19,746 nucleotides of DNA. Source: a virus (Duplodnaviria > Heunggongvirae > Uroviricota > Caudoviricetes). The position numbers were made by a program, and so were the translations under genes. Positions within the stretch are counted from its first letter, which is position 1. Each line of letters starts with the position of its first letter. The DNA is taken from IMG/VR virus record IMGVR_UViG_2541047849_000002, one strand, 5' to 3'. Shown here piece after piece: positions 1-16,825 of this stretch. The notes under the pieces are model-generated. The model searched no databases and had not been told where the DNA came from. It saw only the letters and a list, made by a program, of their open reading frames with translations.

Positions 1-1164
1 TTACGCCTTCTTTATATCCTCCATAATTCCAGAGTGGGACATATTTGGGACATTATCACCAAAAATGTCGTCTATTTTCCTCGCATGCTCTGTCAAATGA
101 TTAGGCGCAAGGTGAGCATACCTACGAACCATTTCTATGGACTCCCATCCGCCCATTTCCTGAAGCACTGATAATGGGACGCCTGACTGAATCAGCCAGC
201 TTGCCCAGGTGTGTCTGAGGTCATGGAAACGGAAATCTTCAATTCCTGCACGACGACAAGCTGATAGCCATGATGTCTTGCTGTCGATGCGCATCTTCCT
301 GACCGCAGGCGTTGATGTTCCATCTGCTCGCTTAGCCGCCTTGGTATGTACAAACACCCATTTGTGATGCTTGCCTATTTGATCACGCAACACTTTACAG
401 GCGGAATCGTTCAGCGCCACACCAATGGCGCGGTTTGATTTGCTCTCTTCTGGATTCACCCAGGCAACTCGTCGCTGCATGTCGATTTGTTGCCATTCCA
501 GATTTATGATGTTCGACTTTCTCAGACCAGTTGCCAGCGCAAACTTGACGACAGATTTCAGTGGTTCGGGGCACTCATCAATAAGGCGTTTTGCTTCCTC
601 CTTTTCCAGCCATCTGACTCGCTTGTTTCTGACCGCTGGTATCTTGATGACAGGCGCTTTTTCCAGCCACTTCCAGTCGCGTTCTGCAGCACGGAGAATG
701 GCCTTTATCATGGCAAGATGCTTTGCCTTTGTCTGAGTTGATACTGGCTTTGGTTCATAAACAGGCGGTTCTTTACCTTTCCTGATGGCGGCCTGAACTT
801 TCTGTTTCCATATTTCTTTCGTCTTTCTGTTATGCATTCTGCTTACAGCAGAGTAAATCTTTGCCTCCGAGATATCTTTAAGCCTTATACCCTCAAAATG
901 TTCAAGCCAGAACTCAATCCGGCTTTTATCTGAATCGAGAGATTTTTTATCAGCTTTTTCCTCAAGCCATCTTAGGCAGGCCTCTTCAAAAGTGACATCA
1001 GGTAAATCCCCTAGCTTTTCTACTCGCCAGAGTTCTGCTTTTCGCTTGTCGTGCAACTCCTGAGCTTGCCGCTTGTCCTTTGTGCCAAGAGATTCCTTAA
1101 TTCGTTTCCCGCCCGGGAGCGAATACGAGGCATACCATATTTCATTTCTGCGGAAGAGTGACAT
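1..1164 (-). CDS. intD: Phage tyrosine integrase (DLP12-type), 387 aa
   Basis: Complete minus-strand ORF, ATG at 1164-1162 and TAA at 3-1. C-terminal catalytic region [10 protein letters not shown] ... RRYAHL fits the tyrosine recombinase signature. Translation matches E. coli IntD as I recall it. Confidence 0.95.
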
Positions 1165-1391
1165 TTTCTTTCCTCTGTTATGCCATCACCCGCGCTCACC
1201 TGGACAGTATGCAGCGGAGACTGAAGCGCCGCAATGCAGGCTTGCCGTGTTGTGAGGTAAGGAGATTTTGGCTTGGTTGGATCTTTACGTGTTGCCTGTA
1301 GGCGGCCTGTTCGTATCCAGTTGGTGGCGGTTGGTCTGGATATCTTAAGAAACTGACAGGCCTCATCGAGTGTGAGGCTGTATGATTCCAT
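1020..1391 (-). CDS. xisD: Excisionase-like HTH protein (Xis/AlpA type), about 123 aa with an unusually long C-terminal tail overlapping int
   Basis: Minus-strand ORF directly upstream of int. ATG at 1391-1389 is preceded by a GAGGT Shine-Dalgarno. N-terminal [26 protein letters not shown] resembles the Xis/AlpA helix-turn-helix. The frame runs about 145 nt into int, so it may be frameshifted or degenerate. Confidence 0.5.
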
Positions 1392-1641
1392 GGTTACCTC
1401 TGCTTTTTGAACGCATGTCACGTAACTTCTTAATGTGTTCTGCCGTTTCGATCTCTTCTGCTATCCGATCTGCATCAGCTTTATTCACAGGTTCAAAGTC
1501 ATGATTAAAGCGGAACATGCTGGCGATACATGTTCTGCCTTTTCGGATGTAGTGAACTTTGTTGTGGGTAGAACGCAGGATTTTGCAGGGAGTGCCGTGG
1601 TGGTCGACGTACCAGGTGTTAGGCAAAATGATTCTGAACAT
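1363..1641 (-). pseudogene. exoD: C-terminal remnant of a lambda-type exonuclease (exo); 5' part deleted
   Basis: Minus-strand frame ending ...HYIRKGRTCIASMFRFNHDFEPVNKADADRIAEEIE aligns loosely with the C-terminal ~60 residues of lambda Exo (...[33 protein letters not shown], recalled). No N-terminal exo sequence is present, and the frame abuts the start of O. Confidence 0.4.
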
Positions 1642-2461
1642 TTTTACACCTCAGTTGGCCGGATTAACACAGCACCAGCTTCTGGTCTTTCTGGCTGTCA
1701 TGCGCAAAACATATGGCTTTAATAAAAAACTGGATTGGGTTAGCAACGAGCAACTTTCCGAATTAACCGGGATATTGCCGCACAAGTGTTCTGCTGCAAA
1801 AAGTGTTCTGGTAAAGCGTGGGATTTTTATTCAGAGCGGGCGGAATACCGGCATTAATAATGTGGTCAGTGAATGGTCAACATTACCCGAATCAGGTAAG
1901 AAAAATAAAGTTTACCTGAAAGAGGTAAATTTACCTGAATCAGGTAAAAAAAGTTTACCCAAATCAGGTAAAGGCGTTTACCCGAATCAGGTAAACACAA
2001 AAGACAAACTAACAAAAGACAATATAAAACCTTTTTCGTCCGAGAATTCTGGCGAATCCTCTGACCAACCAGAAAACGATCTTCCTGTGGTGAAACCGGA
2101 TGCTGCAATTCAGAGCGGCAGCAAGTGGGGGACAGCAGAAGACCTGACCGCCGCAGAGTGGATGTTTGACATGGTGAAGACCATCGCGCCATCAGCCAGA
2201 AAACCGAATTTTGCAGGGTGGGCTAACGATATCCGCCTGATGCGTGAACGTGACGGACGTAACCACCGCGACATGTGTGTGCTGTTCCGCTGGGCATGCC
2301 AGGTCAACTTCTGGTCCGGTAACGTGCTAAGTCCGGCCAAACTCCGCGACAAGTGGACCCAGCTCGAAATCAACCGAAACAAGCAACAGGCTGGCGTGAT
2401 AGCCGGCAAACCAAAACTCGACCTGACGAACACTGACTGGATTTACGGGGTGGAGCTATGA
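1628..2461 (+). CDS. O: Replication initiator protein O (lambdoid); divergent N-terminal iteron-binding domain, lambda-like C-terminal domain
   Basis: LAVMRKTYGFNKKLDWVSNEQLSELTGILPHKCSAAKSVLVKRGIF parallels the lambda O N-domain. The C-terminal ~110 aa (...WANDIRLMRERDGRNHRDMCVLFRWACQ...WIYGVEL) matches the lambda O C-domain as I recall it. Stop overlaps the P start (ATGA at 2458-2461). Start taken as ATG 1628; the ORF track's 1559 is a TTG. Confidence 0.8.
   Translation: MILNIFTPQLAGLTQHQLLVFLAVMRKTYGFNKKLDWVSNEQLSELTGILPHKCSAAKSVLVKRGIFIQSGRNTGINNVVSEWSTLPESGKKNKVYLKEVNLPESGKKSLPKSGKGVYPNQVNTKDKLTKDNIKPFSSENSGESSDQPENDLPVVKPDAAIQSGSKWGTAEDLTAAEWMFDMVKTIAPSARKPNFAGWANDIRLMRERDGRNHRDMCVLFRWACQVNFWSGNVLSPAKLRDKWTQLEINRNKQQAGVIAGKPKLDLTNTDWIYGVEL
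1883..1994. repeat. Replication origin iterons: five 17-bp dyad-symmetric repeats (TTACCYGAATCAGGTAA) inside O, followed by an AT-rich stretch to about 2035
   Basis: Copies at 1883-1899, 1912-1929 (variant centre), 1931-1947, 1955-1971 and 1978-1994, then an A/T-rich tract at 1995-2035. Same architecture as ori-lambda, which lies within O. Confidence 0.7.
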
Positions 2462-3159
2462 AAAACATCGCCGCACAGATGGTTAACTTTGACTGTGAGC
2501 AGATGCGCCGGATCGCCAACAACATGCCGGAACAGTACGACGAAAAGCCACAGGTACAGCAGGTAGCGCAGATCATCAACGGTGTGTTCAGCCAGTTACT
2601 GGCAACTTTCCCGGCGAGCCTGGCTAACCGTGACCAGAATGAACTGAACGAAATCCGCCGCCAGTGGGTTCTGGCTTTCCGGGAAAACGGGATCACCACA
2701 ATGGAACAGGTTAACGCTGGAATGCGCGTAGCCCGTCGGCAGAATCGACCATTCCTGCCATCACCCGGGCAGTTTGTCGCCTGGTGCCGGGAAGAAGCAT
2801 CTGTTAACGCCGGGCTGCCAAACGTCAGCGAGCTGGTTGATATGGTTTACGAGTATTGCCGGAAGCGTGGCCTGTATCCGGATGCAGAGTCTTATCCGTG
2901 GAAATCGAACGCGCATTACTGGTTGGTTACCAACTTGTACCAGAACATGCGGGCCAATGCGCTGACTGACGCGGAATTACGGCGCAAGGCTGCCGATGAA
3001 CTGACCTGTATGACAGCGCGAATTAACCGTGGTGAGACGATACCTGAACCAGTAAAACAACTTCCTGTTATGGGCGGTAGACCTCTAAATCGTGCACAGG
3101 CTCTGGCGAAGATCGCAGAAATTAAAGCTAAGTTCGGACTGAAAGGAGCAAGTGTATGA
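2458..3159 (+). CDS. P: Replication protein P (DnaB helicase loader), 233 aa
   Basis: Translation MKNIAAQMVNFD...AKIAEIKAKFGLKGASV is close to identical to lambda P over its full length as I recall it. Coupled to O and ren by overlapping stop/start codons. Confidence 0.95.
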   Translation: MKNIAAQMVNFDCEQMRRIANNMPEQYDEKPQVQQVAQIINGVFSQLLATFPASLANRDQNELNEIRRQWVLAFRENGITTMEQVNAGMRVARRQNRPFLPSPGQFVAWCREEASVNAGLPNVSELVDMVYEYCRKRGLYPDAESYPWKSNAHYWLVTNLYQNMRANALTDAELRRKAADELTCMTARINRGETIPEPVKQLPVMGGRPLNRAQALAKIAEIKAKFGLKGASV

Positions 3160-3458
3160 CGGGCAAAGAGGCAATTATTCATTACCTGGGGACGCATAAG
3201 AGCTTCTGTGCACAGGACGTTGCCGCGGTAACAGGCGCAACCGTAACCAGCATAAATCAGGCTGCGGCTAAAATGGCGCGGGCAGGAATCCTGGTCGTTG
3301 ATGGTAAGGTCTGGCGAACGGTGTATTACCGGTTCGCTACCAGAGAAGAACGGGAAGGAAAGGTGAGCACGAATCTGATTTTTAAGGAGTGTCGCCAGAG
3401 TGCCGCGATGAAACGCGTATTGAGGGTATATAAAAGAACATCAATGGGTACACAATGA
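3156..3458 (+). CDS. ren: Ren-like protein, 100 aa; last ~8 residues differ from lambda Ren
   Basis: MTGKEAIIHYLGTHKSFCAQDVAAVTGATVTSINQAAAKMARAGILV... matches lambda Ren until about codon 91 and then diverges (...KRVLRVYKRTSMGTQ). This marks the left edge of the inserted island. Confidence 0.8.
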   Translation: MTGKEAIIHYLGTHKSFCAQDVAAVTGATVTSINQAAAKMARAGILVVDGKVWRTVYYRFATREEREGKVSTNLIFKECRQSAAMKRVLRVYKRTSMGTQ

Positions 3459-3525
3459 TGAAACAGGTGAGTTGATTTCAAACTGTAGTACAATTCTCTC
3501 CAGTTTGAACAGGAAAGAATATGCT

Positions 3526-3858
3526 ATGAACCCTTATATTTATCTTGGTGGTGCAATACTTGCAGAGGTCATTGGTACAACCTTAATGAAGTTTTCAGAA
3601 GGTTTTACACGGTTATGGCCATCTGTTGGTACAATTATTTGTTATTGTGCATCATTCTGGTTATTAGCTCAGACGCTGGCTTATATTCCTACAGGGATTG
3701 CTTATGCTATCTGGTCAGGAGTCGGTATTGTCCTGATTAGCTTACTGTCATGGGGATTTTTCGGCCAACGGCTGGACCTGCCAGCCATTATAGGCATGAT
3801 GTTGATTTGTGCCGGTGTGTTGGTTATTAATTTATTGTCACGAAGCACACCACATTAA
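3526..3858 (+). CDS. emrE: Small multidrug resistance efflux transporter EmrE, 110 aa
   Basis: MNPYIYLGGAILAEVIGTTLMKFSEGFTRLWPS...LSRSTPH matches EmrE. AGGAAAG Shine-Dalgarno at 3511-3517. Four hydrophobic segments. Confidence 0.95.
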   Translation: MNPYIYLGGAILAEVIGTTLMKFSEGFTRLWPSVGTIICYCASFWLLAQTLAYIPTGIAYAIWSGVGIVLISLLSWGFFGQRLDLPAIIGMMLICAGVLVINLLSRSTPH

Positions 3859-3889
3859 AAATAATTTGTTTTTAAACGACTAAAATATG

Positions 3890-3930
3890 GAGGCTCTTAT
3901 ATTTATATGAGCCTCGTTTTATGCTTTTTG
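3890..3930 (+). terminator. Putative intrinsic terminator downstream of emrE
   Basis: Inverted repeat GAGGCTC (3890-3896) / GAGCCTC (3909-3915) followed by GTTTTATGCTTTTTG. Confidence 0.5.
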
Positions 3931-4113
3931 TTAATGTCTTTATTTTTTATGTATTCTTTTGTGCTTTCAAGATTATGGCGTGAGAAAATTGCAATACGAT
4001 TATTGTTGTATATTCAAGATAATGTGACCTTAATTGTCTTTTTAAATAAAAATTAAACAAAAGTTATATCCCACCACTAAGGTTTATAAAAGCATACGTT
4101 AGCAGGTGTCACC

Positions 4114-5640
4114 ATGAAAAAAGCCATAGCATATATGCGATTTTCATCACCAGGTCAGATGTCTGGCGACTCATTGAACCGACAGAGAAGACTTATTGCT
4201 GAATGGTTAAAGGTAAATAGTGATTATTATCTTGATACCATAACATATGAAGATTTAGGATTAAGTGCATTCAAAGGAAAGCATGCACAATCAGGAGCTT
4301 TTTCGGAATTTTTAGATGCTATAGAGCATGGTTATATATTGCCAGGAACTACATTGTTAGTTGAAAGTTTGGACAGACTTTCAAGAGAAAAAGTCGGTGA
4401 AGCGATTGAGCGTCTGAAATTGATTTTGAATCACGGTATTGATGTTATAACTCTTTGCGATAATACAGTCTATAATATTGACTCTTTGAATGATCCATAT
4501 TCATTAATAAAAGCCATACTTATAGCACAAAGGGCAAATGAAGAAAGCGAGATAAAGTCAAGTCGGGTTAAATTATCATGGAAGAAAAAACGGCAGGATG
4601 CACTGGAGTCAGGCACGATTATGACGGCGTCTTGTCCGAGATGGCTCTCATTGGATGACAAAAGAACAGCTTTTATTCCAGACCCCGACAGGGTGAAAAC
4701 GATTGAGCTAATTTTTAAACTCAGGATGGAAAGGCGATCATTGAATGCAATAGCCAAGTATTTAAATGATCATGCTGTAAAAAATTTCTCAGGCAAAGAA
4801 AGTGCATGGGGGCCTTCTGTAATTGAAAAATTATTAGCGAATAAAGCTCTGATAGGTATATGCGTACCTTCATATCGTGCAAGAGGTAAAGGAATAAGTG
4901 AAATCGCTGGCTATTATCCCAGAGTCATATCAGATGATTTGTTTTACGCTGTGCAGGAAATTCGGTTGGCACCTTTTGGTATTAGCAATAGTAGCAAAAA
5001 TCCTATGTTGATAAATCTACTTCGAACAGTTATGAAGTGCGAGGCTTGTGGTAATACCATGATTGTTCATGCGGTATCTGGAAGTTTGCATGGCTATTAT
5101 GTTTGTCCGATGAGAAGACTGCATCGATGTGACAGGCCATCAATAAAGAGAGATTTGGTTGATTATAATATCATTAATGAGTTGCTTTTTAATTGTAGTA
5201 AAATCCAACCAGTTGAAAACAAGAAAGATGCTAATGAAACTTTAGAGTTGAAAATTATTGAGCTCCAGATGAAAATTAATAATTTAATTGCTGCATTATC
5301 TGTTGCGCCTGAAGTTACCGCTATAGCAGAAAAAATCAGAGTATTAGATAAAGAATTACGAAGGGCTTCGGTATCATTAAAAACTTTGAAGAGTAAAGCG
5401 GTGAGTTCACTTGGTGATTTTCATGCTATTGACTTAACCAGTAAAAATGGGCGAGAGCTATGTCGTACACTTGCCTATAAAACATTCGAAAAAATCATAA
5501 TCAATACAGATAATAAAACCTGTGATATCTATTTTATGAATGGCATTGTTTTTAAACACTATCCTTTAATGAAAACAATATCCGCCCAGCAGGCGATAAG
5601 TACTCTCAAATATATGGTTGATGGTGAGGTTTATTTTTGA
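4114..5640 (+). CDS. ybcK: Large serine recombinase (YbcK type), 508 aa
   Basis: N-terminal resolvase-type catalytic domain (AIAYMRFSSPGQ ... LLVESLDRLSRE), a Cys-rich zinc-ribbon segment (CEACGNTMIVH...YYVCPMRRLHRCDRP) and a coiled-coil region. AGGTG Shine-Dalgarno. Visibly AT-rich coding sequence. Confidence 0.9.
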   Translation: MKKAIAYMRFSSPGQMSGDSLNRQRRLIAEWLKVNSDYYLDTITYEDLGLSAFKGKHAQSGAFSEFLDAIEHGYILPGTTLLVESLDRLSREKVGEAIERLKLILNHGIDVITLCDNTVYNIDSLNDPYSLIKAILIAQRANEESEIKSSRVKLSWKKKRQDALESGTIMTASCPRWLSLDDKRTAFIPDPDRVKTIELIFKLRMERRSLNAIAKYLNDHAVKNFSGKESAWGPSVIEKLLANKALIGICVPSYRARGKGISEIAGYYPRVISDDLFYAVQEIRLAPFGISNSSKNPMLINLLRTVMKCEACGNTMIVHAVSGSLHGYYVCPMRRLHRCDRPSIKRDLVDYNIINELLFNCSKIQPVENKKDANETLELKIIELQMKINNLIAALSVAPEVTAIAEKIRVLDKELRRASVSLKTLKSKAVSSLGDFHAIDLTSKNGRELCRTLAYKTFEKIIINTDNKTCDIYFMNGIVFKHYPLMKTISAQQAISTLKYMVDGEVYF

Positions 5641-5751
5641 GTAATAATCACTTTTCCAACCGTGCTATAGTAAGAAAGTTAGGTAAGTACAATAAAAGTA
5701 TCTATCCTGAACGAAGCGTCCTGAGCTATGGTTTTACTATAGGGACTGCCA

Positions 5752-6075
5752 ATGGATGCTGGCGTTCCCGTTCTAGCAGTTCAACAATTCCCAATCACAA
5801 AACAATTCACTGATAACGAACTTTGCACACTCGCCTGGTTATGGCGAGCAGGGAATGTGATGTTAATTGCCTACCAGAACGTTACTCATCTTCTTCAGGA
5901 TGCGGAGCATGGTGAGGCTGGTCACTTCACTTCCATCGAGCAAGAATATCCCCAGAGACTCAACAGAGCGCGAGCAATCCTCGCCCGAGAAACGGCACAT
6001 GTAAAACTTCAGCCGTGGCAGGATGATAAGTGGAGTCAAGTATTGCCGCATTTACCTCAGAATCTGTTTCAATAA
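5752..6075 (+). CDS. Hypothetical protein, 107 aa, no recognisable family
   Basis: ORF with ATG and a weak AGGGA Shine-Dalgarno. Base composition by eye is less AT-rich than the flanking ybcK and HNH genes. Could be a gene fragment. Confidence 0.3.
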   Translation: MDAGVPVLAVQQFPITKQFTDNELCTLAWLWRAGNVMLIAYQNVTHLLQDAEHGEAGHFTSIEQEYPQRLNRARAILARETAHVKLQPWQDDKWSQVLPHLPQNLFQ

Positions 6076-6093
6076 AGGCGCTAGTTAGTAAGG

Positions 6094-6119
6094 CTTCCGT
6101 CATTCTGCGATGACGGAAG
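6094..6119. other. Perfect 10-bp-stem hairpin (CTTCCGTCAT-tctgcg-ATGACGGAAG) with no U-tract
   Basis: Inverted repeat read directly, 19 nt downstream of the 107-aa ORF stop. May be a terminator, RNA stability element or recombination-site remnant. Confidence 0.3.
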
Positions 6120-6249
6120 TGCGGGCTGCGTACGGGAGAGCAATTGCATGAATAATATAAATATTCCGCTCACTCCATATAGCGATTTCTGATACAAACT
6201 TATCTATTGTGGTAAAATTATAGAAACAAACTTATAGCGTACTAACCAT

Positions 6250-7032
6250 ATGGACAATATTAATAAACACGGGCTCTCAAGAAGAATACCTGAGACAATA
6301 AAACGTCAGATAAGGCAAAGGTGCGGCTTTGGCTGTGTAATTTGTGGATTTGGATTTTATGATTATGAGCATTTTAAACCTGACTTCGTTGATGCCAAAA
6401 TACATGATCCGAATGGAATGACACTTCTTTGCTCCCAATGCAATCAAAAAAGAGCTCGTGGTAGACTTTCAGCACAGACAGTGGAAATAGCTGACAGAAA
6501 TCCCAAGTGCTTACAGGCTGGTTTTGCAAATGAAATGTTTGATTTTCATAATGAGCCTATAACAGTAAAATTTGCAGGAGTGACGTTTCATAACTGTCAA
6601 AATTTGATTGTAGTCAACGAACAACCCATTCTTTCTGTGAAACCTTCACCCATACCACATGGACCGATGCTTTTATCAGGAATTTTCTGTAATTCTATTG
6701 GTAAGGAGACTTTACTGATAGATGAAAATGAATGGAAAGCTAAATCAGACAATTGGGATGTGGAGTGTACCGGCCCGCGTATAACAATACGACGTGGGCC
6801 AGGAGAGTTTGCCCTCGTTCTAAAAATGGAACCTCCAACAGGATTGATTGTTGAGCGTCTTGATATGTTGTATGAAGGGGTCAGGATGAAAGGAGATAAA
6901 GATCTGCTGGAAGTTTCGATTAATGGAGGTCCCTTGCACAGATGGCAATCATGCTCAATGTCAAATTGCCATACAGGGCTTGCGATTCAGGGCGGTATTA
7001 GAGCTGCTAATGATCCTTTGTATTGCGCCTAA
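6250..7032 (+). CDS. HNH-nuclease-domain protein, 260 aa, with an uncharacterised ~185-aa C-terminal domain
   Basis: N-terminal CGFGCVICGF...YDYEHFKP...NGMTLLCSQCNQKRA fits the HNH motif (Cys pair, catalytic His, Asn, second Cys pair). The rest has no family I recognise. Possible extended -10 promoter (TGgTAAAAT) about 30 bp upstream. Confidence 0.6.
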   Translation: MDNINKHGLSRRIPETIKRQIRQRCGFGCVICGFGFYDYEHFKPDFVDAKIHDPNGMTLLCSQCNQKRARGRLSAQTVEIADRNPKCLQAGFANEMFDFHNEPITVKFAGVTFHNCQNLIVVNEQPILSVKPSPIPHGPMLLSGIFCNSIGKETLLIDENEWKAKSDNWDVECTGPRITIRRGPGEFALVLKMEPPTGLIVERLDMLYEGVRMKGDKDLLEVSINGGPLHRWQSCSMSNCHTGLAIQGGIRAANDPLYCA

Positions 7033-7074
7033 ATCCACTAAATTGATTTTCAACAATCAACTTGCCATAATTAA

Positions 7075-7103
7075 GTCACCGGAGTTTGAACTCCTCCGGT
7101 GAC
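7075..7103. terminator. Strong hairpin, putative terminator/insulator between the island and ninB
   Basis: GTCACCGGAG (7075-7084) pairs with CTCCGGTGAC (7094-7103), a perfect 10-bp stem, followed by TTCTG. Confidence 0.45.
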
Positions 7104-7224
7104 TTCTGCGCTAAACGGGGACGTTTATGCGCACATACAATCCAACCTCTCTTCTCCATTCACAGATGCAGAAATGCACCTGCGATATTTTGCATCCAGC
7201 GTTTGATCTCTGCGGAGGTGAAGC

Positions 7225-7680
7225 GTGAACCTCCCACAAGATGGTATCAAATTGCATCGCGGTAACTTCACCGCTATCGGTCGGCAGATCCAGCCTTATC
7301 TGGAGGACGGCAAATGCTTTCGCATGGTGCTTAAACCGTGGCGCGAGAGACGCAGTCTTTCCCAGAATGCACTCAGCCACATGTGGTACAGCGAAATCAG
7401 TGAATACCTCATCAGCAGGGGTAAAACGTTCGCCACTCCAGCTTGGGTAAAAGATGCTCTCAAACACACTTATCTCGGTTATGAAACCAAAGAACTGGTT
7501 GATGTCGTAACCGGTGAAATCACCACCATTCAGTCATTACGTCATACCTCCAATCTTGATACCGGAGAGATGTATGTCTTCCTGTGTAAGGTTGAAGCCT
7601 GGGCGATGAATATTGGCTGCCACCTGACTATTCCGCAGAGCTGCGAGTTCCAGCTGCTGCGCGACAAGCAGGAGGCGTAA
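7225..7680 (+). CDS. ybcN: NinB-family recombination protein (YbcN), 151 aa
   Basis: GTG start with GGAGG Shine-Dalgarno. [15 protein letters not shown]...[20 protein letters not shown] matches YbcN and the NinB core motif. Confidence 0.9.
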
Positions 7681-7850
7681 TGGCTACACCGCTTATTCGT
7701 GTCATGAACGGACACATCTACAGAGTACCAAATCGTCGTAAGCGTAAGCCTGAGCTGAAACCATCCGAAATACCAACACTGCTCGGATATACCGCCAGCC
7801 TGGTTGATAAAAAATGGTTGCGACTGGCAGCAAGGAGGAATCATGGCTGA
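7680..7850 (+). CDS. ninE: NinE protein, 56 aa
   Basis: ATG overlaps the ybcN stop (TAATG). Translation [56 protein letters not shown]. Below the ORF-track length cutoff; found by manual translation. Confidence 0.8.
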   Translation: MATPLIRVMNGHIYRVPNRRKRKPELKPSEIPTLLGYTASLVDKKWLRLAARRNHG

Positions 7851-8133
7851 TTTGAGAAAAGCAGCGCGTGGTCGGGAATGCCAGGTAAGAATCCCTGGCG
7901 TATGTAATGGCAACCCTGAAACGTCTGTACTGGCACATATCCGGCTGACTGGATTGTGCGGCACCGGTACCAAACCGCCAGACCTGATTGCCACCATTGC
8001 ATGTTCTGCCTGCCACGACGAAATCGACCGCCGCACACATTTTGTCGATGCTGCATATGCAAAAGAATGCGCGCTGGAAGGTATGGCGAGAACACAGGTT
8101 ATCTGGCTGAAAGAGGGGGTTATTAAGGCGTGA
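7843..8133 (+). CDS. ybcO: YbcO, putative Cys-rich metal-binding nuclease, 96 aa
   Basis: ATG at 7843 with AAGGAGG Shine-Dalgarno, overlapping the ninE 3' end. [23 protein letters not shown]...[13 protein letters not shown] matches YbcO. Confidence 0.85.
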
Positions 8134-8492
8134 ATACCTACAGCATCACATTACCCTGGCCTCCGAGCAATAATCGCTATTACCGCCATAATCGCGGGCG
8201 CACGCACGTCAGCGCAGAGGGGCAGGCATACCGCGATAACGTCGCCCGAATCATTAAAAACGCAATGCTGGATATCGGCCTGGCTATGCCTGTGAAAATC
8301 CGCATTGAGTGCCACATGCCGGATCGCCGTCGCCGTGACCTGGATAATCTGCAAAAAGCCGCTTTTGACGCACTCACTAAAGCAGGTTTCTGGCTGGATG
8401 ATGAGCTGGTCGTTGATTACCGCGTTGTGAAGATGCCTGTTACCAAAGGTGGGAAGCTGGAACTGACCATCACTGAACTGGGAGATGAATGA
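8130..8492 (+). CDS. rusA: Holliday junction resolvase RusA, 120 aa
   Basis: GTG start overlapping the ybcO stop. [31 protein letters not shown]...[11 protein letters not shown] matches RusA. Confidence 0.95.
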
Positions 8493-8629
8493 TGTTTGAG
8501 TCTTATATGGCAGAACGTCTTCGCCACCGCTGGATGCGCCTGCGCTTATATCGTTTCCCCGGTTCTGTTTTGACCGATTACCGAATACTGAGGAATTACG
8601 CCAAAACCCTGACAGGAGCAGGAGTATGA
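8489..8629 (+). CDS. ylcG: Small protein YlcG, 46 aa
   Basis: ATGATG start overlapping the rusA stop; translated manually as [46 protein letters not shown]. Confidence 0.55.
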
Positions 8630-8714
8630 AGTCAGAGATAACAATCAACTAATACTGTTTTATTGATTTTTGCTTGTAATTGGCGTTCTGGTCTGATTTT
8701 TGTGGAGTAAGTTG

Positions 8715-9098
8715 ATGCGTGATATTCAGATGGTTCTTGAGCGTTGGGGAGCGTGGGCGGCTAATAATCATGAAGATGTGACCTGGTCGTCCATTGCCGC
8801 CGGTTTTAAGGGATTAATTCCTTCAAAAGTAAAATCTCGCCCGCAATGTTGTGACGATGACGCGATGATCATTTGCGGGTGCATGGCCCGTCTGAAAAAG
8901 AACAACAGCGATTTGCACGATTTATTAGTAGATTATTATGTAGTCGGTATGACATTCATGTCACTGGCAGGTAAGCATTGCTGCTCTGATGGTTATATCG
9001 GGAAAAGGTTACAGAAGGCTGAGGGCATAATTGAAGGGATGTTAATGGCATTAGATATCCGGTTAGAGATGGATATCGTTGTTAATAACTCTAATTAA
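8715..9098 (+). CDS. quuD: Late-gene antiterminator Q homolog, 127 aa
   Basis: ATG at 8715 with GGAG Shine-Dalgarno. [24 protein letters not shown]... with a Cys-rich zinc-binding region; matches QuuD. Confidence 0.85.
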
Positions 9099-9131
9099 TA
9101 TGCCAATTGTTTACTAAAAATTATTAAAAAT

Positions 9132-9149
9132 GGGGCGTTGAGACGCCCC
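9132..9149 (-). terminator. Hairpin GGGGCG-ttgaga-CGCCCC with a U-tract on the minus strand; candidate nmpC terminator
   Basis: Perfect 6-bp stem; on the minus strand it is followed by ATTTTTAATAATTTTT. Lies about 140 nt downstream of the nmpC stop. Confidence 0.35.
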
Positions 9150-9241
9150 CAAAAATAAAGGGTAATATATAACAGAAGGTTTATATAGTTAGAAGCAAGG
9201 TTGTGCTTCTAAAGGAAGTGGCTTGAGGGAGCCACTTATAT

Positions 9242-9277
9242 GTTGGGGAGGCAAAGCCTCCCGCAACATATCTTTTT
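9242..9277 (+). terminator. Intrinsic terminator on the plus strand downstream of Q (tR-prime-like)
   Basis: GGGAGGC-aaa-GCCTCCC stem (extendable with one bulge) followed by ATATCTTTTTCG. Position relative to Q mirrors lambda pR-prime/6S RNA/tR-prime. Confidence 0.4.
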
Positions 9278-9287
9278 CGTAATCAGA

Positions 9288-10370
9288 TTAGAACTGATAC
9301 ACCAGACCTACAGCGACGATGTCGTCGGTATCAATACCAGCTGTTTTGGTAAACTTACTATCGTCAATTAAGTTGATTTTGTAATCAACAAAAGTGGACA
9401 TGTTTTTATTAAAGTAGTAAGTAGCACCGACATCGACATACTTGACTAAGTCTCGGTCACCATGAACACCAAGGTCTTTACCTTTTGACTGAAGGTAAGC
9501 AACAGATGGTCGCAGACCGAAGTCAAACTGATATTGTGCTACTGCTTCAAAGTTTTGTGCTTTGTTTGCAATATGGTTATTACCAAAAACGGTCATATTC
9601 TGAGTTTCAGAATATGTGGTAGCCAGATAGATATTGTTCGCATCATATTTCAGGCCTGCAGCCCATACTTCCGCATTTTTGCCGGAGGCATTGAATTTGC
9701 TCTTACCATAGGCGACCTGACCGTCAGTGCGATCTGATTTAGCATAGGTTGCACCCACGCCGAATCCTTCATACTCATAAGTAGTGGAGAAACCGAAACC
9801 ATCACCATTGGCTTCAGTTACGTCAGTGCGGTCATTTTTACCCTGATACTGAGCAGCAAAGTTCAGGCCATCGACCAGACCAAAGAAGTCGTTGTTACGA
9901 TAGGTTGCAACACCAGTGGTGCGACCAGTCATGAACACATCTGTTTGGGTCCAGGTATCGCCACCGAATTCTGGCAGAACGTCAGTCCACGCACCGATGT
10001 CGTATGCTACACCGTAGTTACGGCCGTAATCGATTGAGCCGTAGTCACCGAATTTCAGGCCTGCAAATGCAAGACGGGTTTTGTCTTTGGAGGAACCTTG
10101 AGATTCAGCGCGGTTGCCTTTGAATTCATATTCCCACTGACCGAAACCAGTCAGTTGATCGTTGATTTGGGTTTCACCTTTGAAGCCAAGACGGGCATAA
10201 GTAGTATCACCATCATCTGCATCGTTAGAGGAAAAGTAGTGCTTGGCATTAACTTTCCCGTACAGATCCAGCTTGTTACTGTCTTTATTATAAATTTCAG
10301 CTGCCTGAGCAGACATCGCCATCAGTACTGATGCAGCTACAGCAGAAATTGCCACTGTTAATTTTTTCAT
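9288..10370 (-). CDS. nmpC: Outer membrane general porin (NmpC/OmpD type), intact, 360 aa
   Basis: Signal peptide ending AQA, beta-barrel porin sequence throughout, C-terminal VYQF. AAGGG Shine-Dalgarno. Matches NmpC. Confidence 0.95.
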
Positions 10371-11174: not shown

Positions 11175-11671
11175 TGCCTCCATCATTACGAAAAGCCGTT
11201 GCTGCTGCTATTGGTGGCGGAGCAATTGCTATAGCATCAGTGTTAATCACTGGCCCAAGTGGTAACGATGGTCTGGAAGGTGTCAGCTACATACCATACA
11301 AAGATATTGTTGGTGTATGGACTGTATGTCACGGGCATACAGGAAAAGACATCATGCTCGGTAAAACGTATACCAAAGCAGAATGCAAAGCCCTCCTGAA
11401 TAAAGACCTTGCCACGGTCGCCAGACAAATTAACCCGTACATAAAAGTTGATATACCGGAAACAACGCGCGGCGCTCTTTACTCGTTCGTTTACAACGTG
11501 GGCGCTGGCAATTTCAGAACATCGACGCTTCTTCGCAAAATAAACCAGGGCGATATCAAAGGCGCATGTGATCAGCTACGTCGCTGGACATATGCTGGCG
11601 GTAAGCAATGGAAAGGTCTCATGACTCGTCGTGAGATTGAGCGTGAAATCTGTTTGTGGGGTCAGCAATGA
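11174..11671 (+). CDS. rrrD: SAR (signal-anchor-release) endolysin / lysozyme, 165 aa
   Basis: ATG overlaps the essD stop. N-terminal Gly/Ala-rich weakly hydrophobic segment ([18 protein letters not shown]) followed by a lysozyme fold; matches RrrD / R21. Confidence 0.95.
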
Positions 11672-13396: not shown

Positions 13397-15823
13397 ATGG
13401 AAGTCAACAAAAAGCAGCTGGCTGACATTTTCGGTGCGAGTATCCGTACCATTCAGAACTGGCAGGAACAGGGAATGCCCGTTCTGCGAGGCGGTGGCAA
13501 GGGTAATGAGGTGCTTTATGACTCTGCCGCCGTTATAAGATGGTATGCCGAAAGGGATGCTGAAATTGAGAACGAAAAGCTGCGCCGGGAAGTTGAAGAA
13601 CTGCGGCAGGCCAGCGAGACAGATCTCCAGCCAGGGACTATTGAGTACGAACGCCATCGACTTACGCGTGCGCAGGCCGACGCACAGGAGCTGAAAAATG
13701 CCAGAGACTCCGCTGAAGTGGTGGAAACCGCATTCTGTACTTTCGTGCTGTCGCGGATCGCAGGTGAAATTGCCAGTATTCTCGACGGGATCCCCCTGTC
13801 GGTGCAGCGGCGTTTTCCGGAACTGGAAAACCGACATGTTGATTTCCTGAAACGGGATATCATCAAAGCCATGAACAAAGCAGCCGCGCTGGATGAACTG
13901 ATACCGGGGTTGCTGAGTGAATATAACAGCGCACAGGCGGCAGCGTCCTCGCAGACTGCATCGGCAAACTCCGCGACAGCAGCCAAAAAATCAGAAACCA
14001 ACGCGAAAAACAGCGAGACAGCCGCAAAGACGAGCGAAACCAACGCAAAGTCCAGCCAGACGGCAGCGAAAACCAGCGAAACGAATGCCAAAGCCAGTGA
14101 AACTGCGGCGAAAAATAGCCAGAATGCAGCAGCCGAAAGCGAGAGCGCGGCAGCCGGTTCTGCGACTGCAGCAGCTGGATCAGCAACTGCTGCGGCTAAC
14201 AGCCAGAAAGCAGCGAAGACGAGCGAAACTAACGCAAAGTCCAGCCAGACGGCAGCGAAGACCAGCGAAACAAATGCCAAAGCCAGCGAAACTGCGGCGA
14301 AAAGCAGTCAGGATGCAGCAGCCGAAAGCGAGAGTGCTGCAGCTGGTTCTGCAAGTGCGGCGGCTGCTTCTGCCACTGCATCAGCAAACAGTCAAAAAGC
14401 TGCAAAAACCAGTGAAACCAATGCAAAGACAAGCGAGACTGCAGCGGCGAACTCGGCGCAAGCATCGGCAGCAAGCCAGACAGCAGCTAAAGCAAGTGAG
14501 GATGCAGCCAGAGAGTATGCAAGCCAGGCAGCAGAGCCGTATAAATATGTCTTACAGCCACTGCCTGATGTGTGGATACCGTTTAACGATTCACTGGATA
14601 TGCTTGCTGGCTTTTCGCCTGGTTATAAGCAAATAACCGTAGGTGATGATGTTATTAAAATGCCATCCGATAAGGTTGTTAGCTTCAAACGCGCATCAGG
14701 TGCAACATACATTAATAAATCAGGTGTATTAACCGTTGCTGAAGTTGACGAACCGCGATTTGAACGAGAAGGTTTGCTGATTGAAGGACAGAGAACAAAC
14801 TATTTCAGAAATTCAAATACACCAGAAGCATGGAATAACACGGGTAGTGTGTCTGTTGAGTCGTTCGACAGTGATAAGGGGTTTAACTATGGAAGGATAA
14901 CTGTTATCAATGAAAATCCGACAGCACAAGGATATCAGGCAATTGCTGTAAACACGAATGATGCTTACACCTGCCCGGCAGGTTCTTATACGACGATATC
15001 GTGTCTGACGAAAAGTGATAATTCCCGGTGTCGTGCAAGGTTCGGAAAAATGTCTGATAATGGTGCGTTTGTTTTTCATTCAGATGCAGTTCTGGATCCT
15101 GTTACGGGAAATGTTGTTCATGGAAATAATGTGACGGTGACGGCAGAAAGAGTCGGTGAATGGTGGTTGTTTACCGCCACTCTTTTTGCAGATGCGGAAA
15201 TGATAATCAGCTCAAGATTTGAAATCCTGGCGATGCCTGGAATCAGTATTATCCCCAATGGCTCTACGTTAGATATTGCGATGCCTCAGGCGGAGATTGG
15301 GTCGTACAGGACGTCATTTATCATTACTGAAGGGGCTCCTGGCACTCGCTCCAGCGACATGGTGACAATACCTGTAAGAAACAATATTCACCGATTACCA
15401 TTCAGTGCTCTTGTTGAAGTTAATAAAAACTGGGATATCCCTCCCAGCAAATCACCATTAATCTTTAATGTTAAAGATTATCAGGAAAATGGTCTGTTCA
15501 CGCATGGATTCCGTGGTAATAATTTCTCTGATGCCGGTTCTCCTTTTATTTCTATGGGAGGGTGTAATAAATATGTGGCAACAACCCAGAGGAAAATCAT
15601 TTCAGGCTTCCGTTGTGGCGCTGATGGAGATGTTCAGGCCGTATGTAATGGTGAATTATCTGTTGCGGCAAAAACAACATGGACTTCAATTGTTCCACGG
15701 GCAGTATTGCGAATTGGAGGGCAGGGCACTAATGGGGAGTATCATCTTTTTGGTCATATCCGTAATCTGCGTATCTGGCATAAAGAATTAACTGATGCGC
15801 AAATGGGGGAGAGTATTAAATGA
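13397..15823 (+). CDS. Chimeric ORF, 808 aa: terminase small subunit Nu1 (residues 1-176) fused in frame to the shaft and C-terminal receptor-binding part of a side tail fibre
   Basis: Residues 1-176 (MEVNKKQLADIFGASIRTIQNWQEQGMPVLRGG...PGLLSEY) match lambda Nu1, which continues IEQSG-stop. Here the frame continues into Ala/Ser/Thr-rich SETNAK repeats and a C-terminal jelly-roll-like domain (...GEYHLFGHIRNLRIWHKELTDAQM). Junction at about 13922-13927. Confidence 0.8.
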   Translation: MEVNKKQLADIFGASIRTIQNWQEQGMPVLRGGGKGNEVLYDSAAVIRWYAERDAEIENEKLRREVEELRQASETDLQPGTIEYERHRLTRAQADAQELKNARDSAEVVETAFCTFVLSRIAGEIASILDGIPLSVQRRFPELENRHVDFLKRDIIKAMNKAAALDELIPGLLSEYNSAQAAASSQTASANSATAAKKSETNAKNSETAAKTSETNAKSSQTAAKTSETNAKASETAAKNSQNAAAESESAAAGSATAAAGSATAAANSQKAAKTSETNAKSSQTAAKTSETNAKASETAAKSSQDAAAESESAAAGSASAAAASATASANSQKAAKTSETNAKTSETAAANSAQASAASQTAAKASEDAAREYASQAAEPYKYVLQPLPDVWIPFNDSLDMLAGFSPGYKQITVGDDVIKMPSDKVVSFKRASGATYINKSGVLTVAEVDEPRFEREGLLIEGQRTNYFRNSNTPEAWNNTGSVSVESFDSDKGFNYGRITVINENPTAQGYQAIAVNTNDAYTCPAGSYTTISCLTKSDNSRCRARFGKMSDNGAFVFHSDAVLDPVTGNVVHGNNVTVTAERVGEWWLFTATLFADAEMIISSRFEILAMPGISIIPNGSTLDIAMPQAEIGSYRTSFIITEGAPGTRSSDMVTIPVRNNIHRLPFSALVEVNKNWDIPPSKSPLIFNVKDYQENGLFTHGFRGNNFSDAGSPFISMGGCNKYVATTQRKIISGFRCGADGDVQAVCNGELSVAAKTTWTSIVPRAVLRIGGQGTNGEYHLFGHIRNLRIWHKELTDAQMGESIK
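14030..14407 (+). repeat. Tandem duplication of a 189-bp (63-codon) unit within the tail-fibre shaft, with partial related units on both sides (about 13975-14480)
   Basis: Unit 1 at 14030-14218 and unit 2 at 14219-14407 are near-identical (TSETNAKSSQTAAKTSETNAKASETAAK...ANSQKAAK). Confidence 0.85.
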
Positions 15824-16101
15824 AAGATTTAACACTCAAATTTGCAGACAGGGCCGACTTTTCGGCCTTTATGGAGAGTATTGGCTATTATGATGACGAG
15901 TCGATGCAGGATGATATTCTTATTGACGTGATAGGTAACGTGTACAAAGAAACCGGAGAACTGACTGAAGATGGCGAACCGGTATGTGTTAAGGAAGACG
16001 GATATTTTGTAAACGTGCGCATCATTAATGATGTAAAAAAATCGTCAATATTCGATAAATACGCGGTTGTTGTTGAGCATCAACTTCGTGGCTGGATGTG
16101 A
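15820..16101 (+). CDS. Small acidic hypothetical protein, 93 aa, translationally coupled to the tail-fibre ORF
   Basis: ATGA start/stop overlap with the upstream ORF. About 20 Asp/Glu against about 10 Lys/Arg. No family recognised. Confidence 0.5.
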   Translation: MKDLTLKFADRADFSAFMESIGYYDDESMQDDILIDVIGNVYKETGELTEDGEPVCVKEDGYFVNVRIINDVKKSSIFDKYAVVVEHQLRGWM

Positions 16102-16110
16102 GGGAGACAA

Positions 16111-16815: not shown

Positions 16816-16825
16816 AGGAGGAGTA

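What the first reader, a model, noticed from the sequence alone, without database searches (positions are those of the whole stretch)
3426..7224. About 3.8-kb AT-rich island inserted between ren and ninB, replacing the ren C-terminus
Lambda runs P-ren-ninB contiguously. Here Ren matches lambda until about codon 91 and then diverges, followed by emrE, ybcK, a 107-aa ORF and the HNH protein before ninB resumes. Most of the island looks markedly more AT-rich than the flanking replication and nin genes (by eye, not computed). It is bounded by a terminator after emrE (3890-3930) and a hairpin at 7075-7103. The content downstream of ybcK seems to differ from K-12, suggesting an exchangeable cargo hotspot.
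Basis: partly seen in the sequence, partly recalled or inferred. Interest (0 to 1): 0.55.

Follow-up and report, generated by a model that had tools for sequence, protein, structure and literature searches.

The report
Swappable cargo slot in lambdoid prophage
The AT-rich stretch between the ren and ybcN genes of this DLP12-like E. coli prophage is real, but it is a patchwork of at least three separately acquired gene modules sitting in a fixed-boundary slot where related phages carry dozens of other cargoes, including known anti-phage defence genes; this is an ordinary kind of prophage feature, mapped here in detail.

Summary
Window 3432-7042 (3611 bp) has 38.2% GC against 50.6% and 50.8% in the flanks. 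Lambda homology stops at 3431, inside ren after codon 92. The gene list is right: emrE, ybcK, a 107-aa ORF and an HNH-like 260-aa protein. K-12 carries ybcL-ybcM where the window has 5650-7042.

Three corrections. The island is not one insertion but at least three modules: emrE-ylcJ-ybcK, a 5'-truncated rha/antirepressor remnant, and the HNH-like gene. The emrE terminator is internal, not a boundary. The 7073-7105 hairpin lies inside the conserved right flank, which starts at 7043. 'ninB' is YbcN, only a distant NinB/Orf-family relative.

The hotspot reading is supported. All 10 individually mapped comparators break at 7043. Across 29 different cargo architectures, from 59 complete IMG/VR intervals, conservation steps up at 7041-7050. 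Left breakpoints cluster at the end of ren or of P. Alternative cargoes include PD-Lambda-1, AbiL, and SIR2, NACHT, HD and HEPN proteins.

The right anchor is a promoter-like palindrome, a hairpin with compensatory stem changes and a conserved loop, and the small ORF ylcH. Copies of it flank cassettes as direct repeats.

This is a known kind of feature (prophage moron/defence hotspot). Interest is modest. The HNH-like family and the hairpin leader are the parts worth testing.

The parts
3156..3458 (+). ren (100 aa). It holds the left anchor of the slot; the left breakpoint lies in its last ~10 codons (3421-3431).
   Evidence: PHROG 142 Ren-like, E = 6e-42. 90% identical to lambda Ren over residues 1-92, then divergent. 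DNA homology to lambda ends at 3431. 12 of 29 cargo architectures break at 3421-3431.
3432..5649 (+). Module A: emrE-ylcJ-ybcK, 35.8% GC.
   Evidence: 97% identical to K-12 DLP12. At least 80% of it is present in 1399 of 5426 complete E. coli genomes. Also carried by isolated phages such as 4A7 and Turner. In 78 IMG/VR loci with ybcK, ren-emrE is upstream wherever that DNA is held.
3526..3858 (+). emrE, an SMR multidrug efflux transporter (110 aa).
   Evidence: NCBIfam NF042984 EmrE, 240.6 bits against a cutoff of 226. Pfam Multi_Drug_Res, E = 3e-35. A 92%-identical copy without ybcK lies in the fliE-yedK prophage remnant of about 2266 genomes; homology spans window 3449-3865.
3890..3930 (+). 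Intrinsic-terminator-like hairpin plus U-rich tail after emrE. It is internal to the island and overlaps the ylcJ start codon.
   Evidence: Fold -14 kcal/mol, z = -3.4, tail GUUUUAUGCUUUUUG. The consensus scan missed it, probably because of its interrupted stem.
3907..4056 (+). ylcJ small ORF (49 aa).
   Evidence: Pfam PF23688 YlcJ-like, E = 1e-34. Annotated in RefSeq.
4114..5640 (+). ybcK, a large serine recombinase (508 aa); function in the phage unknown.
   Evidence: Pfam Resolvase + Recombinase + Zn_ribbon_recom. PHROG 95 integrase, E = 6e-120. N-terminal YMRFSSPGQ motif. In K-12 a Rho/NusG-dependent terminator upstream keeps it silent (PMC4150792). ylcJ-ybcK is an indel between emrE and ybcL relative to the fliE-yedK remnant.
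5650..6126 (+). Module B: 5'-truncated remnant of an rha/antirepressor-like gene (107-aa ORF 5752-6075) plus hairpin 6093-6119; 46.8% GC.
6127..7042 (+). Module C: the 260-aa HNH-like protein gene (6250-7032); 39.6% GC.
7043..7228 (+). Right anchor ('leader'): palindrome and promoter-like TTGATT-N6-AATCAA...CATAAT (7043-7071), hairpin 7073-7105, and the small ORF ylcH (7127-7228) whose stop overlaps the ybcN start.
   Evidence: The breakpoint is at 7043 in all 10 comparators. Across 29 architectures conservation steps from about 0.43 to at least 0.8 at 7041-7050. At least 5 compensatory stem families share the loop YYUGAACAM. The 25-mer and the promoter-like pattern each occur once in the window, with 0 expected by chance. 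No Rfam family. Second copies flank the rha cassette elsewhere.
   Evidence: PHROG 72 NinB/Orf, E = 8e-52. Pfam NinB is below threshold at 22 vs 23.8 bits. No significant pairwise similarity to lambda NinB. 96-97% identical DNA to K-12.

Best explanation
Window 3432-7042 fills a fixed-boundary cargo slot of DLP12/phage-82-type lambdoid (pro)phages. The slot lies between the replication module (P-ren) and the nin-like module (ylcH-ybcN-ninE-ybcO-rusA).

What is shown: the flanks are conserved at 93-98% among many phages, while the DNA between them is unrelated from phage to phage. The content here is a nested mosaic of three modules. Module A is emrE plus the ylcJ-ybcK segment. Module B is the dead 3' half of an rha/antirepressor gene whose 5' half and upstream leader were overwritten by module A. 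Module C is a 260-aa HNH-fold gene.

What is inferred: cargo is exchanged as cassettes by homologous or homeologous recombination (RecA, or phage Red/Orf/Rap type) between the conserved flanks of co-resident lambdoid phages and prophages. The ~100-235-bp leader that is sometimes duplicated on both sides of a cassette could serve the same purpose. New cargo would first enter by illegitimate recombination, which would explain its foreign, AT-rich composition.

The cargo is dispensable for phage growth, since lambda and ev243 have none. It is probably kept because it benefits the lysogen: EmrE gives efflux, and many alternative cargoes are anti-phage defence systems. By position, fold and its prophage-associated homologues, the HNH-like protein is most likely a nuclease acting in defence or superinfection exclusion. 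That role is inferred, not shown.

For: Variability. 59 complete intervals fall into 29 architectures of 1.0-5.5 kb. There are 10 different downstream contents among 78 ybcK-bearing loci.

Empty sites. Lambda and ev243 have ren directly followed by ninB, 73 bp apart.

Modules have independent distributions: 1399, about 840 and 80 of 5426 genomes. K-12-type ybcL-ybcM is in 3206 genomes at >=80% coverage.

Foreign composition.

Defence cargo in the same slot: PD-Lambda-1 E = 7.6e-197, AbiLi 1.8e-83 plus AbiLii, SIR2, NACHT, HD, HEPN. Deposited annotation in PhiR26_1 also names PD-lambda-1.

Recombination between lambda and DLP12 through shared homology has been demonstrated experimentally, for another region of the prophage (PMC3945230).

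HNH-like homologues sit directly after P in an Enterobacter Rac-like prophage, in a Pseudomonas prophage, and between the replication and Q modules of a Klebsiella phage.
Against: No exchange event was observed; recombination through the flanks is inferred from breakpoint patterns. Selection to keep ren and the leader promoter intact could produce sharp boundaries whatever the mechanism.

The IMG/VR sample is the first 120 matches to an exact 25-mer and is not random. It is biased to this leader type and contains near-duplicates.

None of the window's own cargo proteins matches a PADLOC defence model, so the defence role of the HNH-like gene is only positional and structural.

Promoters are consensus matches no more frequent than in shuffled sequence (16 found vs 12.2 expected).

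ybcK is a recombinase of unknown role, so a part for it in moving module A is not excluded.
Confidence: 0.78

Rival explanations
1. The island, or its emrE-ylcJ-ybcK part, is a discrete integrative element that the large serine recombinase YbcK inserted site-specifically at the end of ren.
For: YbcK has all three large-serine-recombinase domains and the catalytic-serine motif. ylcJ-ybcK (about 2.09 kb in K-12) behaves as an indel between emrE and ybcL when DLP12 is compared with the fliE-yedK remnant. A 60%-identical YbcK homologue sits without emrE in the same relative position in an Atlantibacter lambdoid prophage, with lower GC than its surroundings.
Against: No direct or inverted repeats of note flank the island or module A. 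The indel junctions show only a trivial AATAAT repeat in AT-rich DNA. Recombinase-free cargoes (PD-Lambda-1, acyltransferase plus lipoprotein and others) occupy the same boundaries. Close YbcK relatives (at least 97% identity) were found only in the ren-emrE-ybcK context in 78 IMG/VR loci. ybcK is transcriptionally silenced by Rho in K-12 (PMC4150792).
Confidence: 0.1
2. Nothing was inserted or exchanged. The content is the ancestral DLP12 backbone, and the differences between strains are only lineage-specific deletions and IS events.
For: Deletions and IS insertions are frequent here. K-12 lost O and part of P and has IS3 in ren. IS elements interrupt the slot in several genomes. The rha remnant shows that truncation occurs.
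Against: Alternative contents are mutually unrelated sequences, not nested subsets: 29 architectures and 50 protein families. The composition differs sharply from the flanks. Flanks are 93-98% identical while the interiors share no homology.
Confidence: 0.05
3. The AT-rich appearance is ordinary gene-to-gene compositional noise with no biological boundary.
For: The window has other low-GC stretches (10-11 kb and 17-19 kb). The island ranks only 58th lowest of 1614 windows of the same size.
Against: The composition change coincides with homology breakpoints mapped independently against 12 other sequences. GC3 drops from 0.53-0.59 to 0.29-0.35.
Confidence: 0.01

Closest known systems
E. coli K-12 cryptic prophage DLP12, renD-emrE-ylcJ-ybcK-ybcL-ybcM-ylcH-ybcN (NC_000913.3 566.7-572.9 kb)
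   Same: Same prophage type. Window 1-1259, 2848-5649 and 7043-9329 match K-12 at 97-99.7%. Same emrE-ylcJ-ybcK module, and the same left (ren) and right (7043) junctions.
   Different: K-12 has ybcL-ybcM (1846 bp) where the window has the rha remnant plus the HNH-like gene (1393 bp). K-12 has IS3 inside ren and has lost O and most of P. K-12's nmpC is split by IS5, whereas the window's porin gene is intact.
Phage lambda ren-tR2-ninB junction (NC_001416 40280-41084)
   Same: P and ren are 93.7% identical in DNA up to ren codon 92. Same gene order: replication module, ren, then nin-type recombination genes.
   Different: Lambda has no cargo: 73 bp between ren and ninB, which hold terminator tR2 (my own knowledge). 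The window has 3.6 kb there. Its nin region is phage-82/DLP12 type (my own knowledge) with no DNA homology to lambda, and YbcN is not detectably similar to lambda NinB pairwise.
[quoted passage not shown] 2022, PMC9122126; Vassallo et al. 2022, PMC9519451)
   Same: A variable locus between conserved phage genes whose contents differ between otherwise similar prophages and include validated defence systems. PD-Lambda-1 and AbiL occur in this slot.
   Different: A different phage family and different anchor genes. This slot also carries non-defence cargo (EmrE efflux pump, esterase, lipoproteins, an adhesin-like protein). Its right anchor is a promoter-like/hairpin/small-ORF leader that can be duplicated around cassettes. 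I found no description of this particular slot in the searchable literature. Brenes & Laub 2025 could not be read.
Morons of lambdoid phages (extra genes with their own promoter and terminator, of deviant composition, between conserved genes; concept from HK97/HK022 comparisons, my own knowledge)
   Same: Deviant GC, dispensability, and a terminator after emrE.
   Different: Own promoters are not demonstrated. The slot holds several modules in series rather than a single moron.
Isolated temperate phages 4A7, Perceval, 1W, 3W and Turner
   Same: They carry P-ren-emrE-ylcJ-ybcK at 94-96% identity in the same position, so module A also travels in phages deposited as isolates.
   Different: The downstream sub-slot holds a minus-strand esterase (4A7 group) or small ORFs (Turner) instead of the HNH-like gene.
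HNH effector nucleases of defence systems (CBASS Cap5, EcoKMcrA, TagI)
   Different: The HNH domain is N-terminal and is joined to an all-beta C-terminal domain with no match in the PDB or BFVD. There is no SAVED or DNA-modification-reader domain. The Pfam HNH score is below threshold.

Membership tests
Prophage cargo (moron/defence) hotspot | Lies between conserved phage genes with reproducible boundaries | tested here: met
   Right breakpoint at 7043 in 10 of 10 comparators, and a conservation step across 29 architectures. Left breakpoints clustered at 3421-3431, 3401 and 3147-3179.
Prophage cargo (moron/defence) hotspot | Content differs among otherwise closely related phages; empty sites exist | tested here: met
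   29 architectures among 59 intervals. 10 downstream variants among 78 ybcK loci. Lambda and ev243 are empty.
Prophage cargo (moron/defence) hotspot | Composition deviates from the phage backbone | tested here: met
   38.2% GC against 50.6% and 50.8%; GC3 0.29-0.35 against 0.53-0.59. The rha remnant, at 46.8%, is an exception.
Prophage cargo (moron/defence) hotspot | Cargo has its own promoter and terminator (classic moron definition) | tested here: inconclusive
   A terminator-like hairpin plus U-tract follows emrE. Promoter-like matches are no more frequent than in shuffles (16 vs 12.2 +/- 3.1). No transcript data.
Prophage cargo (moron/defence) hotspot | Slot holds recognised defence systems in relatives | tested here: met
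   PD-Lambda-1, AbiLi/AbiLii, SIR2 (PDC-S65/Aga-like), HEC-07-like and a HEPN PDC-M28A-like protein by PADLOC; NACHT, HD and DUF4145 by Pfam.
Prophage cargo (moron/defence) hotspot | The cargo of this window is itself a known defence system | tested here: not met
   No PADLOC hit for EmrE, YbcK, the 107-aa ORF, the 260-aa protein or YbcN.
Integrative element moved by a large serine recombinase | Encodes a recombinase with resolvase, recombinase and zinc-ribbon domains and a catalytic serine | tested here: met
   Pfam PF00239, PF07508 and PF13408. The YMRFSSPGQ motif is read from the sequence.
Integrative element moved by a large serine recombinase | Element ends carry att-type sites or repeats; precise empty sites exist | tested here: not met
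   No flanking repeats beyond chance-level 14-20-mers. The emrE|ybcL 'empty' junction shows no att-like symmetry. Other, recombinase-free cargoes use the same boundaries.
Integrative element moved by a large serine recombinase | Recombinase catalyses excision or integration of the element | not testable with these tools
   Needs in vivo or in vitro recombination assays.
HNH (beta-beta-alpha-Me) nucleases, for the 260-aa protein | Sequence match to the HNH family profile | tested here: not met
   Pfam PF01844 scores 14.4 bits against a 21.4 cutoff, E = 0.043. PHROG HNH families give E = 6e-4 and 3e-3.
HNH (beta-beta-alpha-Me) nucleases, for the 260-aa protein | HNH fold with zinc-binding cysteines and a catalytic His/Asn | tested here: met
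HNH (beta-beta-alpha-Me) nucleases, for the 260-aa protein | Nuclease activity | not testable with these tools
   Needs biochemistry.
SMR transporter EmrE | Passes the curated EmrE model | tested here: met
   NCBIfam NF042984, 240.6 bits against a cutoff of 226.
   Pfam NinB scores 22 bits against a 23.8 cutoff. PHROG 72 NinB/Orf, E = 8e-52. BLASTP against lambda NinB gives E = 0.73.

The most novel reading that the evidence does not exclude
The post-replication slot of DLP12/phage-82-type lambdoid prophages works as a cassette array without an integrase. Each cassette would be headed by a copy of a conserved leader: an operator-like palindrome with a -35/-10 match, a structured RNA hairpin with the conserved loop UGAAC, and the small ORF ylcH. 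The leader would both drive or regulate cassette expression and supply the homology for cassette gain and loss. Within this array, the 260-aa N-terminal-HNH, C-terminal-beta-domain family would be a previously unrecognised single-gene anti-phage nuclease.
Probability: 0.25. Interest if true: 0.6.

Novelty: new member of a known kind. Interest (0 to 1): 0.38.

Why it matters
The result turns a by-eye 'AT-rich island' into a mapped cargo slot with base-level boundaries that can be searched for in any lambdoid prophage.

Because validated defence systems (PD-Lambda-1, AbiL) occupy the same slot, its uncharacterised occupants become candidate defence genes found by position. The first is the widespread 260-aa HNH-fold family.

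It also shows that the drug-efflux gene emrE travels in isolated temperate phages, and that emrE survives in a heavily degraded prophage remnant in about 40% of complete E. coli genomes. This is a clear case of phage cargo outliving the phage.

The covarying hairpin leader is an undescribed cis-element, with no Rfam family, that could regulate the nin operon of this phage group.

None of this overturns current views. It extends the known idea of prophage hotspots to a specific lambdoid locus.

Tried and rejected
- Flanking repeats: searched for direct and inverted repeats as transposon or att signatures. Only chance-level 14-27-nt matches turned up. One pair (4216-4229 / 5642-5655) abuts the K-12 breakpoint but is AT-rich and was judged chance.
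- Rfam: nothing at gathering thresholds over the whole window. Only a spurious sub-threshold miRNA hit in 6980-7300.
- PADLOC on the window's cargo proteins: no hits.
- PDB sequence searches: no hit for YbcK, and only a chance hit for the HNH-like family profile.
- BFVD fold search: only weak HNH-domain matches and nothing for the C-terminal domain. The afdb50 library was unavailable.
- Genome-contig scan with YbcK: only E. coli and one Atlantibacter relative, so it gave little on wider contexts.
- MAFFT alignment of the leader hairpins (A2) put the stem families out of register. I therefore did not use the count of structure pairs and tabulated the stems from per-sequence folds instead.
- Literature: no paper describing a ren/P-ninB/ybcN hotspot, and none on ylcH or on YbcK function. 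Brenes & Laub 2025 is not held.
- Boxes and sites: I considered that the hairpin might be a nut/boxB-like site or an intrinsic terminator. It has no U-tract and no convincing boxA, so this is left open.
- Housekeeping: loci fetched in parallel calls did not appear as separate files in /data. They were inside multi-record files, found.

Full report
**What the window is.** The window is a DLP12-like defective lambdoid prophage of E. coli. A 4.7-kb sub-query around the finding (window 3000-7700) is 100% identical to strain B-JRPT-4119, where the prophage sits next to tRNA-Arg. Gene order:

- intD (1-1164, minus strand), a DUF4222 gene, O (annotated as frameshifted), P (2458-3159), ren (3156-3458)
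- emrE (3526-3858), ylcJ (3907-4056), ybcK (4114-5640)
- a 107-aa P22AR_C ORF (5752-6075) and a 260-aa protein (6250-7032)
- ylcH (7127-7228), ybcN (7225-7680), ninE, ybcO, rusA, ylcG, quuD
- an intact porin gene on the minus strand, then the lysis genes

**Checking the observation.** The compositional claim holds.

| Segment | GC |
|---|---|
| 3432-7042 (island as mapped) | 38.2% |
| 1559-3431 (O-P-ren) | 50.6% |
| 7043-8492 (right flank) | 50.8% |
| 5650-6126 (107-aa ORF region) | 46.8% |

GC3 falls to 0.29-0.35 in emrE, ybcK and the 260-aa gene, from 0.53-0.59 in P, ren, ybcN and rusA. The dip is not uniform.

Lambda DNA homology (93.7%) covers 1995-3431 and stops 15 nt before lambda's ren stop.

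- 3890-3915 is followed by a U-rich tail and looks like an intrinsic terminator.
- 7073-7105 has a 12-bp stem and no U-tract.

Against K-12, window 3245-5649 and 7043-9329 match at 97%. K-12 carries ybcL-ybcM where the window has 5650-7042.

- No lambda DNA homology returns after 3431 until the Rz region at 11668.
- The 'ninB' is YbcN. It belongs to the NinB/Orf PHROG family (E = 8e-52), but BLASTP against lambda NinB is not significant (E = 0.73).
- The emrE terminator is inside the island.
- The 7073-7105 hairpin lies inside the conserved right flank, 30 nt to the right of the true breakpoint at 7042/7043.

**The island is a mosaic.** Comparison with eleven other phages and prophages gives these internal breakpoints:

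| Breakpoint | Comparator(s) |
|---|---|
| 5649 | K-12 |
| 5925 | 4A7 group |
| 6068 | MRY15-117 |
| 6126 | 6EVA, P276M, PhiR26_1 |

*Module A* (3432-5649, emrE-ylcJ-ybcK) is present at 80% coverage or more in 1399 of 5426 complete E. coli genomes. It is also carried by phages deposited as isolates, such as 4A7 and Turner.

Module A is itself composite. About 2266 genomes carry a 92%-identical emrE without ybcK. In the one example examined (TUM9812) it sits in a degraded DLP12-like remnant between fliE and yedK, with the order emrE-ybcL-ybcM-ylcH'-quuD'. Relative to that remnant, ylcJ-ybcK (about 2.09 kb in K-12) is an indel between emrE and ybcL.

*Module C* is the 260-aa gene. The complete 5650-7042 cassette occurs in only 80 of 5426 genomes.

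**The slot is a hotspot with fixed boundaries.** An exact 25-mer from the right flank recovered 120 IMG/VR loci. Of these, 59 held a complete interval from P to the flank. They fall into 29 architectures of 1.0-5.5 kb and 34-51% GC, encoding 50 protein families.

Anchored on the 25-mer, which starts at window 7111, column conservation among the 29 representatives jumps from about 0.43 to at least 0.8 between 7031-7040 and 7041-7050. All 10 individually mapped comparators break at exactly 7043.

Left breakpoints cluster in three places:
- 3421-3431: 12 architectures
- 3401: 3 architectures
- the end of P, 3147-3179: 5 architectures that lack ren

At least four unrelated sequences follow the same ren junction. 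Lambda and ev243 are empty sites. Among 78 ybcK-bearing loci, ren-emrE is upstream wherever that DNA is held, while the segment between ybcK and the right flank has 10 different contents. The HNH-like version accounts for 13-14 of them.

**What else sits in the slot.** Alternative cargoes include:
- PD-Lambda-1 (PADLOC E = 7.6e-197; also named in the deposited annotation of PhiR26_1)
- AbiLi/AbiLii
- a SIR2 protein, a NACHT NTPase, an HD-domain protein, a HEPN protein, a HEC-07-like protein and a DUF4145 protein
- an esterase, lipoproteins and a 1302-aa repeat-rich, adhesin-like protein judged from its sequence only (it was not scanned against any family library)

The slot therefore holds defence systems along with other lysogen-benefit genes.

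**The 260-aa protein.** Pfam HNH is below threshold. The protein nevertheless belongs to a well-conserved family of 247-265 aa across Enterobacteria, Burkholderia, Comamonas, Pseudomonas and Vibrio, with 307 hits at 50-79% identity. C29, C32, E40-H41, H52, C61 and N65 are invariant and C64 is nearly invariant.

Homologues sit in comparable places:
- directly after a lambda-P gene in an Enterobacter Rac-like prophage
- as an opposite-strand gene in a Pseudomonas prophage
- between the replication and Q modules of Klebsiella phage ST846-OXA48phi9.2

The 'HNH protein' label is therefore supported at the fold level. A defence or exclusion role is an inference from position only. PADLOC has no model for it.

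**The right anchor.** Window 7043-7228 contains three elements.
- TTGATT-N6-AATCAA followed by CATAAT. This is both a palindrome and a -35/17-nt/-10 match. It occurs once in the window, with 0 expected by chance.
- The hairpin 7073-7105.
- ylcH, whose stop codon overlaps the ybcN GTG start.

Across 125 copies (47 unique sequences) the hairpin stem occurs in at least five mutually compensatory versions:
- GUCAYCGGAG / CUCCGGUGAC
- CCAUCGUCGG / CCGGCGAUGG
- UYACUGUCGG / CCGGCGGUGG
- UGCCGCCGG / CCGGCGGUA
- CGUCGACAGA / UCUGUUGGUG

The loop core UGAAC is kept in four of the five; the UGCCGCCGG version has loop AUUGAGCC. The G-U wobbles fit only the plus-strand RNA. No Rfam family matches.

**How it most likely works.**

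*Shown:* conserved flanks, unrelated interiors, discrete breakpoints, empty sites, foreign composition, and duplicated leaders.

*Inferred:* cassettes are swapped by homologous or homeologous recombination through the flanks, and through leader repeats, when lambdoid phages meet resident prophages. Such recombination between lambda and DLP12 has been measured experimentally for another shared region (PMC3945230).

The sharpness of the right boundary probably reflects selection to keep the promoter-like element and leader attached to the nin genes.

Cargo is dispensable to the phage and is presumably kept for the lysogen. EmrE is a characterised efflux pump (the K-12 annotation is; the curated model is passed). 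ybcK is kept silent in K-12 by a Rho/NusG-dependent terminator in its leader (PMC4150792).

**Rivals.**
- A YbcK-mobilised integrative element is not excluded for the ylcJ-ybcK segment. It lacks att-like ends, and it cannot explain recombinase-free cargoes at the same boundaries.
- A deletion-only history is contradicted by the unrelated contents.
- Compositional noise is contradicted by the coincidence of the composition change with the homology breakpoints.

**Novelty and score.** The sequence is already in RefSeq and annotated. DLP12, emrE and ybcK are known, and prophage morons and defence hotspots are an established concept (PMC9122126, PMC9519451). I found no description of this particular lambdoid slot, of its leader hairpin or of the HNH-like family in the searchable literature. 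One directly relevant paper, Brenes & Laub 2025, could not be read. I file the finding as a new member of a known kind, with modest interest (0.38).

Noticed in passing
window 7043-7228; also L016-L135: A conserved leader sits in front of ybcN. It has the palindrome TTGATT-N6-AATCAA with a -35/-10-like match, an RNA hairpin whose stem covaries in at least 5 families, four of them around the loop UGAAC, and the 33-aa ORF ylcH, which is translationally coupled to ybcN. No Rfam family matches and its function is unknown. It might be a regulatory 5' element of the nin operon of phage-82/DLP12-type phages.
   Followed up: partly
L146 (E. coli TUM9812, NZ_CP128926.1 1977-1981 kb): A heavily degraded DLP12-like remnant lies between fliE and yedK: emrE-ybcL-ybcM-ylcH'-quuD'-nmpC upstream region, about 92% identical to DLP12. 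The matching 90-95% identity bands hold roughly 2266 (emrE) and 2583 (ybcL-ybcM) of 5426 complete E. coli genomes. The cargo genes survive while the phage genes are gone. It lacks ylcJ-ybcK.
   Followed up: partly
L138 (Atlantibacter sp. RC6) 5956-7530: A 60%-identical YbcK homologue lies without emrE about 3.5 kb downstream of a lambda-P-like gene in another lambdoid prophage. Its GC is lower (42-47%) than its surroundings (51-66%). The recombinase may therefore be an independent cargo of the same region.
   Followed up: no
window 13397-15823: An 808-aa ORF whose first 164 residues are the terminase small subunit Nu1, fused to about 640 residues with no Pfam match, in a strongly A-rich stretch (AT skew up to 0.6 at 14.0-14.4 kb). 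Window 13926-17138 has no counterpart in K-12 DLP12. It is probably a deletion fusion between packaging and tail-fibre genes. The next ORFs include one with a Peptidase_S74 domain.
   Followed up: no
window 1165-1560: The immunity and early-left region is missing. Only an HTH gene fragment and a DUF4222 gene lie between intD and O, and O is annotated as frameshifted in the identical RefSeq record. The prophage is therefore defective, although it keeps intact P and ren genes, which K-12 DLP12 lost or had disrupted.
   Followed up: no
window 9288-10370 (minus strand): The porin gene (nmpC/ompC-like, 360 aa) is intact here. In K-12 it is split by IS5.
   Followed up: no
window 17200-18800: This is the most AT-rich part of the window (25-33% GC), around an AraC-family regulator ORF (17882-18544). 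It matches the appY region of K-12 DLP12 at 99.4%. It is a second cargo region at the prophage's right end.
   Followed up: no
L140-L143 (Enterobacter cloacae complex): In Rac-like prophage remnants next to the ttcA-type gene, the HNH-like homologue directly follows P and is followed by two small ORFs and a 459-aa RES-domain protein. This is another post-replication cargo cluster.
   Followed up: no
window 4216-4229 and 5642-5655: A 14-nt inverted repeat (93% complementary) brackets most of ybcK. Its right arm lies exactly on the K-12 breakpoint (5649/5650). I judged it a chance match in AT-rich DNA and did not test it.
   Followed up: no
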